From: Raja brachyura
Lineage: Eukaryota
Length of the DNA: 64,000 nucleotides
Reading direction: 5' to 3'
NCBI GenBank assembly: GCA_963514005.1
Contig: OY740804.1
Coordinates: forward strand, 5,394,001-5,458,000
Positions 18,501 through 27,500 of the stretch are shown here, in pieces. The notes below the pieces were generated by a model. The model saw only the letters and a list, made by a program, of their open reading frames with translations, was not told the origin of the DNA and searched no databases. Numbering within the stretch: position 1 is the first letter of the stretch; each line of letters opens with the position of its first letter. Position numbers and translations under genes: made by a program.

Positions 18501-21500
18501 ACTGGCTGTGCCACTGTGCATACAGATCAATACTCCAACTGGCCTTTAATGCCTGTGAACGGAAGATACAACTTTCTCCCAATTGAAGCAATCCCAATCA
18601 AAACACCAGCAATTAGTACATGGCATCTTTCATTGGAAACAGAGTAGTTAACCTTGAAGGTAGACAAAAGTGCTGGAGAAACTCAGCGGGTGCAGCAGCA
18701 TCTATGGAGCGAAGGAAATAGGCAACGTTTTGGGCCGAAACCCTTCTTCAGACCCACCATCAGTCTGAAGAGGGGTTTCCACCCGAAACTTTGCCTATTT
18801 CCTTCGCTCCATAGATGCTGCCGCACCCGCTGAGTTTCTCCAGCATTTTTGTCTACCTTCGATTTTCCAGCATCTGCAGTTTCTTCTTGAACAGTTTACC
18901 TTGACGTATACTTGGATCTTTTCGAAGTTTCACAAGAATATTCAAGTCCTGTTGGAACAAGGAAATAAAAATCATTTCATTGCTTTTCACTTGCAGTTGA
19001 ACAAGAGAGCATGCTTGTCTGATGTAAGGAGTTCATAGGCAATGTTTCTTCAGTGTAATTTACAGCAAGTGGGAGATGTTGTCATGATATGCTGGAGCAC
19101 TGGTTACAACTCAGGTCGCCAACAGTATGGCGGCACAGTGGCGTAGTGGTAGAGTTGCTGCCTTACAACGAATGCAGCCCGGGTTCGATCCTGAACACGT
19201 TTGGAGTTTGTACCTTCTCCCCGTGACCTGTGTGGGGTTTCTCCGAGATCTTCGGTTTCCCCCCACACCCCAAAGACGTACAAGTTTGTAGGTTAAATGG
19301 CTTGGTAAATGCAAAAATTATCCCTAGTTAAATGGTTAATAATGTGCCGGGATCACTGGTCGGCACGGACCCAGGTGGCCGAAGGGTTTGTTTCCGCGCT
19401 GAATCTCTAAACTAAAGACGTGCAGGTTTGTAGGTTAATTGGCTTCTGTAAATTGTCTCTTAATTTAGAATTGTCCCTAATTGTATTGGTATACCGGTTA
19501 AAGGCAGCTGCTTCCACACTGGATCTCTAAACTAAACTGGATAGATGGGGTTTTATTCCACACAGGAGAGGAACGAGGAAGCTATTACAGGTTATGCAAT
19601 GCTGTGACGGACATTGATAGGGTACTTCGTGGAAAATCAGCACAGCAGATGTGCGTAGAAGTGGAGAACATTAGAAACATAGAAACATAGAAAATAGGTG
19701 CAGGAGTAGGCCATTCGGCCCTTCGAGCCTGCACCGCCATTCAATGTGATCATGGCTGATCATCCAACTCAGTATCCCGTACCTGCCTTCTCTCCATACC
19801 CCCTGATCCCTTTACCCACAAGTGCCACATCTAACGCCCTCTTAAATATAGCCAATGAACTGGCCTCAACTACCTTCTGTGGCAGAGAATTCCAGAGACT
19901 CACCACTCTCTGTGTAAAGAATGTTTTCCTCATTTCGGTCCTAAAGGAATTCCCCCTTATCCTTAGACTGTGACCCCTTGTTCTGGACTCCCCCAACATC
20001 GGGAACAATCTTCCAGCATCTAGCTTGTCCAACCCCTTAAGAATTTTGTAGGTTTCTATAAGATCCCCCCTCAATCTTCTAAATTCCATCGAGTACAAAC
20101 CGAGTCTATCCAATCTTTCCTCATATGAAAGTCCTGACATCCCAGGAATCAGTCTGGTGAATCTTCTCTGTACCCCCTCTATGGCAAGGATGTCTTTCCT
20201 CAGATTTGGAGACCAAAACTGTACGCAGTACTCCAGGTGTGGCCTCACCAAAACCCTGTACAACTGCAGTAGAACCTCTCTGCTCCTATACTCAAATCCT
20301 TTCGCTATGAATGCTAACATACCATTTGCTTTCTTCACTGCCTGCTGCACCTGCATGCCTACTTTCAATGACTGGTGTACCATGACACCCAGGTCTCGTT
20401 GCATCTCCCCCTTACCTAATCTGCCACCATTCAGATAATAGTCTACCCTCATGTTTTTGCCACCAAAGTGGATAACCTCACATTTATCCACATTGTACTG
20501 CATCTGCCATGCATCTGCCCATTCACTCAGCCTATCCAAATCACCCTGCAGCCTCCAAGCATCCTCCTCACACCTAACTATACCCCCCAGCTTGGTATCA
20601 TCTGCAAATTTGGAGATGTTGCATTGAATTCCCTCGTCCAAATCATTAATATATATTGTAAATAGCTGGGGTCCCAGCACTGAGCCTTGCGGCACCCCAC
20701 TAGTCACTGCCTGCCATTCTGAAAAGGACCCATTTACTCCTACCCTTTGCCTCCTGTCTGCTAGCCAGTTCTCTATCCACATCAATACTGAACCCCCAAT
20801 ACCGTGTGCTTTAAGTTTGTATGCTAATCTCTTATGCGGGACCTTGTCGAAAGCCTTCTGAAAGTCTAGATATAACACATCCACTGGTTCTCCCTTATCC
20901 ACTCTACTAGTTACATCCTCGAAAAATTCTATCAGATTTGTCAGACATGATTTACCTTTCGTAAATCCATGCTGACTTTGTCCAATGATTTCACCACTTT
21001 CCAAATGCGCTGCCATCCCATCTTTAATAACTGACTCTAGCAGTTTCCCCACTACCGATGTTAGACTAACTGGTCTGTAATTCCCCGCTTTCTCTCTCCC
21101 TCCTTTTTTAAAAAGTGGGGTTACATTAGCTACCCTCCAATCCTCAGGAACTACTCCAGAATCTAAGGAATTTTGAAAGATTATCACTAATGCATCCACT
21201 ATTTCTGTGGCTACCTCCTTGAGTACTCTGGGATGCAGACTATCTGGCCCTGGGGATTTATCGGCCTTCAATCCGTTCAATTTACCCAACACCACCTCCC
21301 GGCTAACCTGGATTTCACTCAGTTCCTCCATCTTATTTGACCCCCGTTCCACTGCTATTTCCGGCAGATTACTTATGTCTTCCTTAGTGAAGACAGAACC
21401 AAAGTAGTTATTCAATTGGTCTGCCATGTCCTTGTTCCCCATGATCAATTCACCTGTTTCTGACTGCAAGGGACCAACATTTGTTTTAACTAGTCTCTTT

Positions 21501-24500
21501 CTCTTTACATATCTATAAAAACTTTTGCAGTCAGTTTTTATGTTCCCTGCCAGTTTCCTTTCATAATCTATTTTCCCTTTCCTAATTAAGCCCTTTGTCC
21601 TCCTCTGCTGGATTCTGAATTTCTCCCAGTCCTCCGGTAGGCTGCTTTTTCTGGCAAATTTGTATGCCTCATCTTTTGTTTTTATACTATCCCTGATTTC
21701 CCTTGTTATCCATGGATGCACCACCTTCCCCGATTTATTCTTTTGCCAAACTGGTATGAACAACTTTTGTACTTCATCCATGCAGTCTTTAAATACCTTC
21801 CATTGCACATCCACTGTCAACCCTTTAAGAATCACCTGCCAGTCTATCTTGGCCAATTCACATCTCATACCTTCAAAGTTACCTTTGTTCAAGTTCAGAA
21901 CCCTTGTTTCTGACTTAATTTTGTCACTCTCCATCCTAATGAAGAACTCAACCATATTATGGTCACTCTTGCCCAAGGGGCCACGCACAACAAGACTGCT
22001 AACTAACCCTTCCTCATTACTCAATACCCAGTCTAGAATAGCCTGCTCTCTCGTTGGTTCCTCCACATGTTGGTTGAGAAAACTATCCCGCATACATTCC
22101 AGGAAATCCTCTTCCTCAGCACCCCTGCCAATTTGATTCACCCAATCTACATGCAGATTGAAGTCACCCATTATAACCGTGTTACCCTTGTTGCACGCAT
22201 TTCTAATTTCCTGTTTGATGCCATCCCCAACTCCAATACTACTGTTAGGTGGCCTGTACACAGTTCCCACTAGCGTTTTCTGCCCCTTAGAGTTTCGCAG
22301 CTCTACCCATATCGATTCCACATCCTCCACGCTAATGTCCTTCCTTTCTATTGCATTAATCTCCTCTCTCACCAGCAACGCTACCCCACCTCCTTTTCCT
22401 TTTCGTCTATCCCTCCTGAATATTGAATATCCCTGGATGTTCAGCTCCCAGCCTTGGTCATCCTGGAGCCAAGTCTCCGTGATTCCAACTATAGCATAGT
22501 CATTAATCGCTATCTGCACCTTCAACTCATCCACCTTATTACGAATGCTCCTCGCATTGAGACACAAAGCTTTCAGGCTTGTTTTTACAACACTCTTACT
22601 CCTTATACAATTATGTTGACAAGTGGCCCCTTTCACATCGATCCCTATTACACTTGGCCATACTCTCCTATCCCTTTGTGAGCTTTCTTCCCCGTTAATT
22701 CTGGGGTCATTAACCATCGCTTTATTCTCTTTCCCTCTAACTCCGTCCTCGACTATCCCATTTGATACCCCACCCCCCTTATTCAGTTTAAAACCATCCG
22801 TGTAGCAGTGGCAAACCTGCCGGCCAGAATGCTGGTCCCCCACCTGTTAAGATGCAATCCGTCCCTTTTGTACAGTTCCCCCTTACTATAAAAAAAATCC
22901 CAGTGATCTAAGAATCTAAATCCCTGCCCCCTGCACCAGTTCCTCAGCCACACATTCAGGTCCCATATCTCCCTGTTCCTGCTCTCGCCAGCACGAGGAA
23001 CTGGAAGCAAACCGGAGATAACAACCCTGGAAGTCCTGCTTTTCAGCATTTTTCCGAGCTCTCTGAAGTCCCGCTGCAAAAAAATCATCTCCTTCTTTCC
23101 AACATCATTTGTGCCAACATGCACGACCACTTCCGGCTGGTCACCTTCGCCCTTGAGGATTGTCTGCACTCTGTCCGTAACATCCTGGATCCTGGCACCA
23201 GGAAGGCAGCACACCATCCTGGAATCCCGTCTGTTGCCGCAAAACCCCCTGTCCGTACCTCTCACAATGGAGTCTCCAACTACAATGGCGTTGCCCGACT
23301 TTGGCCTCTGTGGGTTTGGCTCATCAGCCCTTTTTGTTTGGCAAGCCAGTCCGCCGCTCAGTGGGATACCGTCTTCTGTCCCGGCAGCTTCCACGTGGGT
23401 GAACCTGTTCACAAGAGGTACAACACCCGGGGACCTTTGCATCCCATGTTTTCCTCCCTTTCTCACCGTCACCCACCTTCTCTCTTCTAGTGCCTTGGGT
23501 GTAACAATCTCACTGAAGGACTTGTCGAGAAACGACTCAGTTTCTCGAATGAACCTGAGGTCATCCACTTGTTTCTCCAGTTCCCCAACTCGGTCCTTCA
23601 GGAGCTGTACCTGGATGCACTTCTCACATTTGTAGCATCCAGAGGCACCAGCAGTGTCCTTGACCTCCCACATACTGCAAGCATCACACTGCATCAGCTT
23701 GCTTGACATCTTCTTTTGCCTCGGTCTCGCCCTATCCAGTATTTTGCGCAGCCTCCTCGCCGAAGACTCTCGAGCCAAAGACTCACACTTTACTCACAGG
23801 GCACTTCCCTCACAAGGCCGCTCCCCAAGAGCTGCCTTGCTTATATTGACTGTTCAATTGCCTAATTTACAAACCAAATTCCTCAGTTTTGAGGAACTGC
23901 TTTCACCCTCTGACTCACTGAGAACTTTCCTCCCACTTGGGCTAGAGCCAATCAGTGCTTTCTCCTGCTTCTCTTTGTTGCTGTTGCTTCAAAATCCACG
24001 GGAAGACTGAGTGAAGTCTGCCTGTGCTTTGCCTCTCCTTTTTAACTGCTCTCCCCCTCTGACTCACTGAGAACTCTCCTCCCACTTGGGCTAGAGCCAA
24101 TCAGTGCTTTCTCCTGCTTCTCTTTGTTGCTGTTGCTTCAAAATCCACGGGAAGACCATTGGGTTGGATTAAGGAGTAGAATATTCGGAGGGTATCTGAG
24201 CAAGAAATATTTTTAAACCTAGATGGTGAGGGCACTTGAATTGTCAAGTCTGAGAAGACTATGGATGAGGGGCTGGTAAAAATGGGATAAGTATCGATGG
24301 CACTTAATGGTAACACAGTGCACCAAAGCTGATAGTGTCTAGGAGTTAATAGTGGCCACATTTACGGATCATTTCTGTTCCCTTCCCATATTTGAGCGTC
24401 GGTCATGTGGAGATGATGGAAAGTGAAAGTGCTTGGACTGATGTCACTGCAAACCTAGTTTAAAGCTGTGTAAATATAAGAGGAAGTTCTAGCCGGGAAG

Positions 24501-27500
24501 CTGGCCTACACCAGCACTGGGAAATCTATTTCTGGAGCCCAGCAACCAAGTATTGTCAAATGGGCCATAATTCCATCATTTTAATCTTGATAAGTTATTA
24601 AATAAGTGCATGGATTTTAGGGTGACGGGGTTTATGCGGAGAAGGCAGGAGAATGGGGTGAAGAGGGGAAGATAGATCAGCCATCATTGAATATTCTATT
24701 TCTGTTTCTATCACGTGATCTTATGAACCACCCCACCCCCACTTCCCCTTCTTGTCCTCATTCCCTCAACTACTTACCAGTGCCGTTGATTTTCACTGGG
24801 AAACTGCAGGGCACGTCACTGCTGGAGATGGACACATTGACCGTTTCACTGGATTTTGATCCACGTTGATTTGAGGCTGTGCAATAATATTGATGGTGTT
24901 GGTGTTTGAAGGATTGACAATGTAGGTCTATGGCATTGTTGTCTGAGATCTTTGAATCCACAGATGGGGTCTTTTCATACCAGGTGTAGCTAATGGGAAG
25001 GGATCCCCGGACCGAGTCACAAGACACTGTCACTGAGCCCCCGAGACAGGAGACATTGGCTGGTGACAGGAATCCAAGCACAGGAACAGACACGGGTTCT
25101 GTGGGAAAGGAGCAAACAGTCAGACACTGAGTGAACATCTGAAAATCAAACACTCGCCAATATCCACCATCTCTGTATCTTAGCCAAAGCCGCCAGGTTG
25201 GAATCTGACCCATCGATCTACATAGAATCATAGAGTCATACAGCATAGAAACAGGCCCTTCGGTCTAAATTGCCCACACTGACCAACACCCCCAAACTAC
25301 ACTAGTTCCCCACCTGACCTTTCTTGGCCCTTAACCCTCTAAACGTATCCTATTCATGTACCTGTCCAATTTTTTCTTAAATAGTACCTACAATAACTAC
25401 TTCTGTCGGCAGTTCGCTTCATGTACCTACCTACCTTAGTGTAAAAATGTTACTCCCCAGACACTTGATAAATTACTCCACCCTCATCTTAAATCTATGT
25501 CCTCTGGTTCTTGATTCCCCTGTGTATGCACAAATGCATTTATGAAGTAAATCGACAGGGACTCACTCCAGTACGGATAAGGACAATGTCACTGCTCAAA
25601 TATTGCATTTCAAAGCGACAGCCAAATTGCCCGCCAGAAAGCTCCTTCTCTTCACAATCCATTCACCAGACATGTACATCTCTGTGTCTCTCCATCCTCC
25701 TAGCTGCCAGAACAACCATGTCTGCCACTGTACCAGTACACAGCAGTACCATCTCTATTTGTTTTGTATTTCCAGCATCTGCACTTTTTAAAATCTGAAT
25801 CTCTGCCACAATTCTACAATACCAACATTCAAACACCTCATTAGTGCAACAGTATCACTATCAACAACTTTTTAATTTCCTTGTATAACATTGTTGATAG
25901 CGATACTGTTGCACTAATGAGGTGCGTGAATGGCGGACTTGCAGAATTGTGTGTAGGAAGCGAATGGGAAAGTGGAATAACATAGAACTAGTGTGACCGG
26001 TGATCGCTAGTCGGTGTAAACTCATTGGGCCAAAGGATCCGTTTCCATGTTGCATTTGTAAACTACAACTAAATATCCGGGTGAACCTTTTCTGTAACCT
26101 CGCCAAACCTCTCACATCTTTTGTTTTATAAAGCGGTGACCAGAAATGTGCACCCGACTCCCACCTAACAAATGTTTTATGTGGATGCCAAAGTGGAGAC
26201 ATCAAGTCAGTCGCTGAGAAACCTACCTTCAGATACTTGGAGATGTACATTAAATGTTGGTTCGCCAGGTGTAGTAATTCCACAACTGTACCACCCTGCA
26301 TCTCCAGAGTGAAGATCCTCCACAGTCACAGTAAATATTCCTCGTGCCGGGTTATCTGTGATTGACACTCTTCCGCTCTGTCCATGTTTCCCATTTGTTT
26401 CCACTACATGCGTACACTGGCGACTTGTCCCACGGCACCAGTATTTTGTGTGTGAGCGGTACACTGCTGCATAGCGACAATCGATTGAGATCGCTCTTCC
26501 CACAACCCCGCTTACTTCACTCTCAGCCCACAGCGCTCCTGAAACTGAAGGAAAAATCTTTCATAAATTGAAGAGCAAAATTAGCCTTTCACAAACATAT
26601 ACATTATAGTACACATCAATGTGTACATGGCAGTCTGCCCAATCATTTTCTTAACTGTGTTGAATTCTACCTAGATTGCGATGAGAGACAGATACTGTAC
26701 ACCGTCCCTCACCAACTGCACAGGTCGTTCCAAAGCGCTTCCCAACCAATGTGGGTGTGAATGGTGAAGAATGATGCATTGAACACGGAGCCTGTTGCAA
26801 TTGGAAGGCGCTGTCTTGGGAGTCATGGTGTGTTGCTGCAGTGCATCGTGCAGATGGTGCAAACTGCTGCTGCCCTGCATCAGCGGGGGAAGTTGAGGAT
26901 GGGGTGTCTATCAAGCACGATTCTGGGTCATGACTGACCAAGCACAAGTGTTCAGCGAAACTGTGGTTTAGGCCAGTGCTTCTTGAACTGATGAATGGTT
27001 CACCCAAGGGTGAATGAAATTATTTTGGGGTGAATTTGTTAATTGATGTTTTTTGCTCATGTGACAAAATAAGTTATATATACAATTATACACAAGGGAG
27101 AATAAGATGAAAATTACCACAAAAAAAAAAGATTTAGCCGAAGGGTGAATGAAATTTTGTGCTAAAGACTCAAGGGTGAATGACACTGAAATAGTTTAAG
27201 AAGAAGTGGCATTGGCTGCGCTTGGTCTCGCATATGTAAACCATTCACGCTCAAGGGTGAGAGGAGTCTTTATTGATGCTGATGGAGTTCCTAAGGCACC
27301 ATGTGTGGTAGATGCCCTCCAAGGCTGGTAGCGGTGTCCCAATAATCTTTTGCGCTCTGTGGACGACGCGCTGAAGAGCTCTCCTCCCCGCCTCCGTGAG
27401 ATACCACACAGATGCCATACGTTAGTATGCTCTCTGTCGTGCAGCGGTAGAAGGTCGTCAGCAGCTGTTGGGGCAGACCAGTCCGTTTCAATTTTCTTAG

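What the first reader, a model, noticed from the sequence alone, without database searches (positions are those of the whole stretch)
22730..22795. Coronavirus-type U_UUA_AAC slippery site plus G-tracts at the CR1 ORF1/ORF2 junction: possible programmed -1 frameshift in a LINE
Seen on the minus strand: ORF1 ends GTT TTA AAC TGA, so T_TTA_AAC (22792-22786) is in the zero frame directly before the stop. The -1 frame (TTT AAA CTG...) is ORF2 and stays open for about 1000 codons. After a 7-nt spacer come GGGGGG-T-GGGG-N8-GGG and a further GGG. Established: X_XXY_YYZ plus a 5-9 nt spacer plus a structure is the canonical -1 PRF signal, and G-quadruplexes can stimulate frameshifting. Inference: ORF2 may be made as an esterase-EN-RT fusion, gag-pol style, rather than by reinitiation. 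An in-frame ATG at 22717 is the alternative. I cannot verify whether this is already published.
Basis: partly seen in the sequence, partly recalled or inferred. Interest (0 to 1): 0.8.

Follow-up and report, generated by a model that had tools for sequence, protein, structure and literature searches.

The report
Conserved ribosome frameshift site in CR1
The commonest jumping gene of most vertebrates (CR1) keeps the same seven-letter ribosome 'slippery' site right before the stop of its first gene in sharks, bony fish, frogs and reptiles, which suggests that its copying enzyme is made as one fused protein by a programmed ribosome slip, as in retroviruses, though no experiment has shown it yet.

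Summary
Observation confirmed. T_TTA_AAC (22792-22786, minus strand) is in ORF1's frame directly before its TGA; the -1 frame runs 1007 codons through endonuclease and RT of an intact, young CR1 LINE in a skate-like genome. The heptamer is conserved as RNA, not protein: between lineages whose four-fold sites are saturated (30-41% identity), it holds the only one of 11 invariant Leu columns that keeps its codon. The base before it stays T under six different amino acids, while the stop varies (TGA/TAG/TAA). Published CR1 consensus rows from 12 vertebrate species show it too. ORF2 is in the -1 frame in every lineage checked; the in-frame ATG moves, and one abundant family has none until after the endonuclease. 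Best reading: programmed -1 frameshift giving a ~1313-aa esterase-EN-RT fusion (0.78, inferred, untested). The G-quadruplex part is weak: a canonical G4 is present in 1 of 7 junctions and no fold is conserved. What is conserved is an unstructured G-run about 10 nt downstream. The scan noted a similar CR1 junction before on other DNA (e1-7814081).

The parts
22783..23709 (-). ORF1, 308 aa from ATG 23709: N-terminal CxxC..CxxC motif, then an SGNH/GDSL esterase; ends ...MVLN-TGA
   Evidence: (PF13472, E 4e-12)
22786..22792 (-). slippery heptamer U_UUA_AAC in the ORF1 frame, immediately before the stop
   Evidence: conservation
22783..22785 (-). ORF1 stop (TGA here; TAG or TAA in other lineages), always directly after the heptamer
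22757..22778 (-). G-tract (G6-T-G4-N8-G3): conserved, unstructured candidate stimulator; most G-rich 25-nt window of the element (top 0.1%)
22577..22786 (-). stop-free -1-frame linker (about 70 codons) from the heptamer to the first endonuclease strand
22715..22717 (-). in-frame ATG, the rival start; not conserved among lineages, read as ATA in part of relatives' contigs
19769..22576 (-). ORF2 body: APE-type endonuclease and reverse transcriptase
   Evidence: PF03372, PF14529, PF00078
19673..19768 (-). short 3' UTR ending in a tandem 8-nt tail, no poly(A)
23710..24157 (-). 5' UTR holding a ~150-nt direct duplication; exact 5' end not determined
   Evidence: read by eye

Best explanation
ORF2 of esterase-type (canonical) CR1 LINEs is expressed mainly by programmed -1 ribosomal frameshifting. 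Most ribosomes stop at the codon right after U_UUA_AAC and release the 308-aa ORF1p. A minority slip one base back (tRNA-Leu UUA to UUU, tRNA-Asn AAC to AAA), read the stop position as CUR-Leu, and continue through a charged linker into endonuclease and RT. This gives a ~1313-aa ORF1p-ORF2p fusion at a fixed low ratio, like Gag-Pol. Shown: anatomy, frame, RNA-level conservation, lack of a conserved start codon. Inferred: the slip itself and the fusion protein. Most uncertain: the stimulator, probably the unstructured G-run about 10 nt downstream and/or slow termination at the adjacent stop, not a pseudoknot.
For: (1): four-fold sites between the main lineages are 30-41% identical (the two related ETLN-type families 75%), yet of 11 Leu columns invariant in 5 lineages only the heptamer TTA keeps its codon. 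listing: the preceding codon encodes V, T, D, G, I or H but always ends in T. (2): a pattern anchored on the upstream DGLHL codons, not on the heptamer, gave 8262 matches (control 343); of the first 100 listed, 99 are CR1 and 94 of 99 carry TTTAAAC (counted by eye; few lineages, many copies). (3): EN is in the -1 frame with no intervening stop in the majority of copies of each of four well-sampled families and in L101; stop-to-EN distances are 80, 116, 140, 146, 179, 209 and 311 nt, all 2 mod 3. (4) The first in-frame ATG is at +68, +20, +2, +23 or +182 nt, or absent. In the KETLN family the first Met is codon 268, after the endonuclease (L180, L181); L101 has none in the codons shown. The -1 frame upstream of the heptamer holds no AUG in 7 of 7 junctions and closes after 5 codons in 3 of 7. 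(5): 53 of 88 ORF1 homologues, and 53 of 61 that reach the C-terminal motif, end in Leu-Asn, including coelacanth and turtle proteins. (6) Supplement of PMC13343379 (first 400 nt per row only): 18 of 22 rows shown with TTTAAAC+stop are ORF1 ends, from 12 species (motif-conditioned); an anchor search not conditioned on the motif gave 8 of 8; six synonymous variants occur at no CR1 ORF1 end. (7) U_UUA_AAC is named among the most shift-prone heptamers for mammalian ribosomes (PMC5009743, passage).
Against: There is no direct evidence of translation (no Ribo-seq, mass spectrometry or reporter). No stimulatory fold: MFE z-score 0.38 in the window, 0 consensus pairs, only 3-8 C in the next 60 nt. 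The G-run starts 10 nt after the heptamer in 6 of 7 junctions, beyond the usual 5-9 nt for a structure. This family's ATG has a good context, and the EDLN family has a SART1-like TAATG. L1 ORF2 tolerates loss of its AUG (PMC1965478, passage), so AUG-less families do not alone exclude reinitiation. No protease domain was detected, so the fusion would stay uncleaved. Lineages share ancestry, so counts of copies are not independent.
Confidence: 0.78

Rival explanations
1. ORF2 is a separate protein made by termination-reinitiation: at a nearby AUG (SART1-type UAAUG coupling, or ATG 22717 here), or AUG-independently as in L1.
For: This is the documented route for SART1 and L1 (PMC2881922 passage; PMC1965478 passage). 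Three of five own-genome lineages sampled have an in-frame ATG before EN, the EDLN family as TAATG. ATG 22717 is kept in 58 of 59 rows of this family's main group.
Against: It does not explain codon-level conservation of T-TTA-AAC, a fixed -1 frame across seven linker lengths, or stop-free sequence between stop and ATG. ATG position is not conserved, close relatives of the TAATG family have TAG-TG (L156, L182), and the KETLN family has no Met before codon 268.
Confidence: 0.13
2. Both routes operate: frameshift is ancestral, and families with a good downstream ATG also make free ORF2p (counted apart from the best explanation only if reinitiation dominates in this family).
For: Good-context ATG at 22717 in this young family; TAATG in the EDLN family.
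Against: The ATG reads ATA in part or all of the depth of four relatives' runs (143/426, 294/1787, 13/48, 24/24). These families still keep the heptamer.
Confidence: 0.05
3. The motif is conserved for a reason other than translation (splice acceptor, DNA-level or protein-binding site, or a required Leu-Asn C-terminus) and the frame relation is inherited.
For: TAG variants resemble a CTAG/G acceptor; Leu-Asn ends 53 of 61 homologues.
Against: TAA and TGA variants lack AG. Protein constraint cannot fix synonymous sites. Esterase LINEs outside this clade end otherwise (L102-L106, L118, L120). Contigs laid show no joint with splice-site ends, a weak observation.
Confidence: 0.04

Closest known systems
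Canonical vertebrate CR1 LINEs with esterase ORF1 (PMC13343379; PMC3905857)
   Same: Esterase ORF1, APE + RT ORF2, short 3' UTR with tandem tail; the element is an ordinary member.
   Different: Term searches of the main text of PMC13343379, PMC3905857 and PMC4120745 found no mention of an ORF1/ORF2 frameshift or fusion.
Retroviral gag-pol and coronavirus ORF1a/1b -1 frameshift (PMC5009743, passages)
   Same: X_XXY_YYZ heptamer, identical to IBV's U_UUA_AAC, in the upstream frame near its stop; polymerase in the -1 frame; low polymerase-to-structural-protein ratio expected.
   Different: No stem-loop or pseudoknot is predicted, no protease is present, and the host is a non-LTR element.
L1 and SART1 ORF2 translation (PMC2881922, PMC1965478, passages)
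   Same: Bicistronic LINE RNA; ORF2 output depends on ORF1 translation.
   Different: Those make a separate ORF2p by reinitiation; here the ORFs overlap at a conserved slip site and no start codon is conserved.
PRRSV nsp2 frameshift, trans-activated by nsp1beta + PCBP (PMC5009743, legend passage; the 10-nt spacing is recalled)
   Same: An unstructured homopolymer-rich tract about 10 nt after the slip site instead of an RNA fold.
   Different: G-rich instead of C-rich; no binding protein is identified here; analogy only.
Penelope-like elements whose ORF1 is separated by a frameshift with a pseudoknot (PMC8557442, Fig. 1 legend)
   Same: A retroelement without LTRs with a proposed ORF1/ORF2 frameshift.
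   Different: Different class (GIY-YIG or no endonuclease) and a structured stimulator.

Membership tests
Canonical CR1 LINE | SGNH esterase ORF1 | tested here: met
   PF13472, E 4e-12
Canonical CR1 LINE | ORF2 with APE endonuclease + RT | tested here: met
   PF03372/PF14529 + PF00078
Canonical CR1 LINE | tandem-repeat 3' tail, no poly(A) | tested here: met
   (the feature itself is partly recalled)
Canonical CR1 LINE | RT phylogeny places it in the CR1 clade | not tested
   No tree built; the junction matches rows labelled CR1 in PMC13343379 by eye
Programmed -1 frameshift signal | X_XXY_YYZ heptamer in the zero frame | tested here: met
Programmed -1 frameshift signal | -1 frame open from the heptamer into the downstream gene | tested here: met
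Programmed -1 frameshift signal | heptamer conserved beyond protein constraint | tested here: met
   (1 of 11 invariant Leu columns keeps its codon)
Programmed -1 frameshift signal | stimulatory stem-loop or pseudoknot 5-9 nt downstream | tested here: not met
   z 0.38, no consensus pairs, few C residues; ViennaRNA does not model pseudoknots; best long-range duplexes were not tested against a control
Programmed -1 frameshift signal | transframe protein or reporter activity | not testable with these tools
   needs a reporter, Ribo-seq or mass spectrometry
G-quadruplex-stimulated frameshift | four G3 tracts with short loops, conserved | tested here: not met
   1 of 7 junctions (loops up to 12 nt), 4 of 7 with loops up to 25 nt, two-tier 3 of 7; the window lacks the short-loop and two-tier forms
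SART1-type stop-start coupling | AUG overlapping or adjacent to the ORF1 stop | tested here: not met
   Window ATG is 68 nt from the stop; TAATG only in the EDLN family

The most novel reading that the evidence does not exclude
Esterase-type LINEs have their own Gag-Pol logic. The CR1 clade has used a -1 frameshift since before the shark/bony-vertebrate split, stimulated not by an RNA fold but by a protein bound to an unstructured G-run about 10 nt downstream (a host G-tract binder or ORF1p itself, allowing feedback). Sister esterase LINEs reach the same ORF1-ORF2 fusion by in-frame UGA-C readthrough (L102-L106, L118, L120).
Probability: 0.25. Interest if true: 0.9.

Novelty: new variant of a known kind. 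Interest (0 to 1): 0.76.

Why it matters
CR1 is described as the dominant retrotransposon in most vertebrates (PMC13343379 abstract). How LINEs translate ORF2 is a long-standing open question, answered so far by reinitiation models from L1 and SART1. A frameshift signal conserved from sharks to reptiles would mean the active CR1 enzyme is an esterase-EN-RT fusion tied to ORF1p multimers. It would redefine ORF2 starts in CR1 annotations and explain 'AUG-less' ORF2s. It may also help explain why CR1 mobilisation assays need the native junction (inference). A natural, unstructured or G-rich stimulator would be new: the 2016 review calls natural G-quadruplex use 'not currently known but anticipated'. 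One reporter experiment can test it.

Tried and rejected
Local RNA structure: none better than shuffles in the window. Two of 21 fold tests reached z below -2, both at 120 nt in the related ETLN families; consensus fold empty. G-quadruplex as the conserved stimulator: rejected as general. Long-range partner of the G-run: a recurrent duplex about 430 nt upstream falls on the C-rich CCLPG codons and had no control, so it is treated as incidental. CUG initiation at TTT AAA CTG: other lineages have CTA. Upstream initiation in the overlap: no AUG in 7 of 7. Viral contigs: no relative. GTDB hits: unrelated bacterial esterases. Metagenomes: 1 of 27 loci was a Leu-Asn-type CR1. Longer-protein search: 1 hit, a single stingray gene model with ORF1 running in frame into EN through ..FKL..; it looks like a mutated copy and is not evidence of recoding. 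Sequencing runs: no RNA holder listed; contigs only. One search's spacing was too short and motif-conditioned, so it was used only to find loci. (further variants in the supplement) was inconclusive because only the first 3 places per term were shown. Literature searches found no CR1 frameshift report. Kapitonov and Jurka 2003 is not held. Haas 1997, Kajikawa 1997 and Repbase reports (recalled titles) were not seen and may already mention overlap or frameshifting.

Full report
1. Observation. The minus strand reads ATG GTT TTA AAC TGA, so T_TTA_AAC occupies 22792-22786 and the ORF1 stop 22785-22783. The -1 frame is open from 22846 to 19769, 1007 codons from the heptamer. The G tracts and the in-frame ATG at 22717 are as described. 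The bare 10-mer occurs 5 times in the window, so the case rests on conservation, not rarity.

2. What the element is. ORF1 (ATG 23709, 308 aa) carries an SGNH esterase; ORF2 carries an APE endonuclease and RT. The 3' end is a short tandem tail. It is a young family: 40 of 40 scored matches to the junction were listed at 100% identity among 1293 candidates. The genome is 2.7 Gb, and its closest named protein hits are from the little skate and other cartilaginous fish. This is a canonical esterase-type CR1 (PMC13343379, section 15 read); I built no RT tree.

3. Conservation at protein level. Of 88 ORF1 homologues, 53 end in Leu-Asn; of the 61 that reach the C-terminal motif, 53 do, with 10 different residues before it. 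Named ones include sharks, rays, coelacanth and soft-shelled turtle. Alignment A1 used 40 proteins that I chose for that ending, so its invariant L and N columns are not evidence.

4. Conservation at DNA level. Anchoring on upstream esterase codons, not on the heptamer, the four best-sampled family groups show TTTAAAC+stop in 65 of 65, 40 of 42, 36 of 36 and 19 of 21 rows (225 rows in all, including repeated copies and non-CR1 rows; loci were chosen by similarity). A genome-wide anchor pattern gave 8262 matches against 343 for the control. Of the first 100 listed, one is not CR1 and 94 of 99 carry the heptamer; the five others differ by one base, two of them still slippery (counted by eye). 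A fifth own-genome lineage (..GLN-TAA) has it in all its rows among loci L215-L262, and so does metagenome locus L101. These are a handful of lineages, not hundreds of independent events. The key control is. Four-fold degenerate sites in the esterase are 30-41% identical between lineages (75% for the two related ETLN-type families). Of 11 Leu columns invariant in five lineages, only the heptamer's keeps one codon (TTA); 6 of 50 invariant columns keep their codon overall, two of them in the heptamer. The codon before it encodes V, T, D, G, I or H and always ends in T. The stop is TGA, TAG or TAA; all three give CTR-Leu in the -1 frame.

5. Other vertebrates. Supplementary Table 2 of PMC13343379 lists consensus sequences, of which only the first 400 nt per row were visible. 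Of 23 occurrences of TTTAAAC+stop, 22 were shown and 18 are ORF1 ends, from 12 species: halosaur, bowfin, coelacanth, bullfrog, alligator, crocodile, bearded dragon, elephant shark, stingray, sawfish, catshark, dogfish (judged by eye). An anchor search not conditioned on the motif returned 9 CR1 rows; 8 reach the ORF1 end and all 8 have it. Six synonymous variants gave 12 occurrences, none at a CR1 ORF1 end; a further variant search was inconclusive. These consensus rows contain small gaps, so frames are unreliable. One clean row (catshark CR1-1a), translated by hand, runs in the -1 frame from the heptamer into the endonuclease motif. No bird or mammal junction was visible.

6. Frame and start codons. 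The stop-to-endonuclease distance is 209, 140, 146, 116, 179, 311 and 80 nt in different lineages and recombinants, always 2 mod 3 and stop-free in the majority of copies; decayed copies show private indels. The first in-frame ATG is at +68 (this family), +20, +2 (TAATG), +23 or +182, or absent. In the abundant KETLN family the first Met is codon 268, past the endonuclease that starts near codon 53 (L180, L181). L101 has none in the codons shown. Upstream of the heptamer the -1 frame has no AUG in 7 of 7 junctions and closes after five codons in 3 of 7. In contigs of four relatives' runs the base making ATG 22717 is changed (to ATA) in 143/426, 294/1787, 13/48 and 24/24 of depth. No variant was listed inside the heptamer, but 100 rows were not shown.

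7. The stimulator. No fold stands out: z 0.38 for the window, zero consensus pairs across six junctions, 3-8 C residues in the next 60 nt. A short-loop three-tier quadruplex is possible in 1 of 7 junctions, not in the window. The G-run itself is conserved. A run of four or more G starts 10 nt after the heptamer in 6 of 7 junctions and at 7 nt in the window, against a background of 8.5% for a comparable interval. It falls in the top 0.0-4.4% of G4Hunter windows in 11 of 11 elements, and appears 3-13 nt after the heptamer in 14 of the 18 vertebrate rows (by eye). A requirement for Gly in the linker could contribute, but the codons are mostly GGG. My reading is that the G-run is an unstructured signal, possibly protein-bound as in PRRSV (trans-activation by nsp1beta and PCBP, PMC5009743 passage; the 10-nt spacing is recalled), acting with the adjacent stop. 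This part is conjecture.

8. Mechanism. Most ribosomes terminate and give ORF1p. A fraction slip at U_UUA_AAC, named among the most shift-prone heptamers, and continue as ..MVLN-LNKGGG.., giving a 1313-aa esterase-EN-RT fusion. Confidence 0.78. The main rival is reinitiation, documented for SART1 and L1. L1 tolerates loss of its AUG, so missing ATGs alone do not exclude it, but it does not explain the synonymous-site conservation or the fixed frame. Splicing is unlikely because two of the three stop variants lack AG.

9. Literature. Nine searches of the open-access library gave no report of frameshifting in CR1. Seen as passages from term searches: PMC5009743 (first 300,000 characters; no mention of CR1), PMC3905857, PMC4120745 (no hits), PMC3894237, PMC8557442, PMC11835228, PMC1965478, PMC1925062, PMC5135761, PMC2881922. 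PMC13343379: passages, section 15 and parts of the supplement. PMC4316615: supplement list only. Kapitonov and Jurka 2003 was not held. The 1997 chicken and turtle CR1 papers and Repbase notes (recalled) were not seen and could already mention an overlap or frameshift. Earlier scan notes e1-7814081 and e1-7350016 report similar junctions on other DNA; I had reached the reading before seeing them, and they are not independent evidence.

10. Verdict. A real feature, conserved as RNA across jawed vertebrates, best explained as a programmed -1 frameshift. It is a known mechanism in a host class where I found no description of it, with an atypical, unstructured candidate stimulator. New variant of a known kind; interest 0.76.

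Noticed in passing
L102-L106, L118, L120 (metagenome contigs): Related esterase LINEs that do not end in Leu-Asn all stop ORF1 with TGA (7 of 7), followed by C in 6 of 7. The endonuclease lies in frame 0 in the less decayed copies (L102, L104, L105, L118). L118 is open for 1031 codons after the TGA with no Met before EN, which suggests stop-codon readthrough.
   Followed up: partly
L082/L177 and L138/L183 versus window: ORF1 and ORF2 modules have been swapped between CR1 lineages at the linker: EDLN-type ORF1 (64% aa identity to the window esterase) sits on an EN 87-90% identical to the window's, and L138 has a composite 311-nt linker. These recombinants keep the -1 frame.
   Followed up: partly
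G000:C1:151.53-151.56 Mb (L018-L022): Head-to-tail array of at least six copies of this CR1 family at about 4.8-kb period.
   Followed up: no
window 23890-24157 (-): About 150-nt direct duplication in the 5' UTR; PMC13343379 describes such repeats for some ORF1-less elements, whereas this one has ORF1.
   Followed up: no
window 24464 and 58519 (-): Two copies of another repeat that also contains TTTAAAC-TAG, outside any ORF examined.
   Followed up: no
window 24770-25264 (-): Open frame that looks like an immunoglobulin-domain exon (recognised from memory, no family search), so the CR1 may sit in an intron of a host Ig-superfamily gene.
   Followed up: no
P0083, P0029, P0035, P0089: Single database proteins that run past the junction (..LN-L.. 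or ..FKL..), showing the -1 frame continues there in other animals; probably mutated copies or gene-model artefacts.
   Followed up: partly
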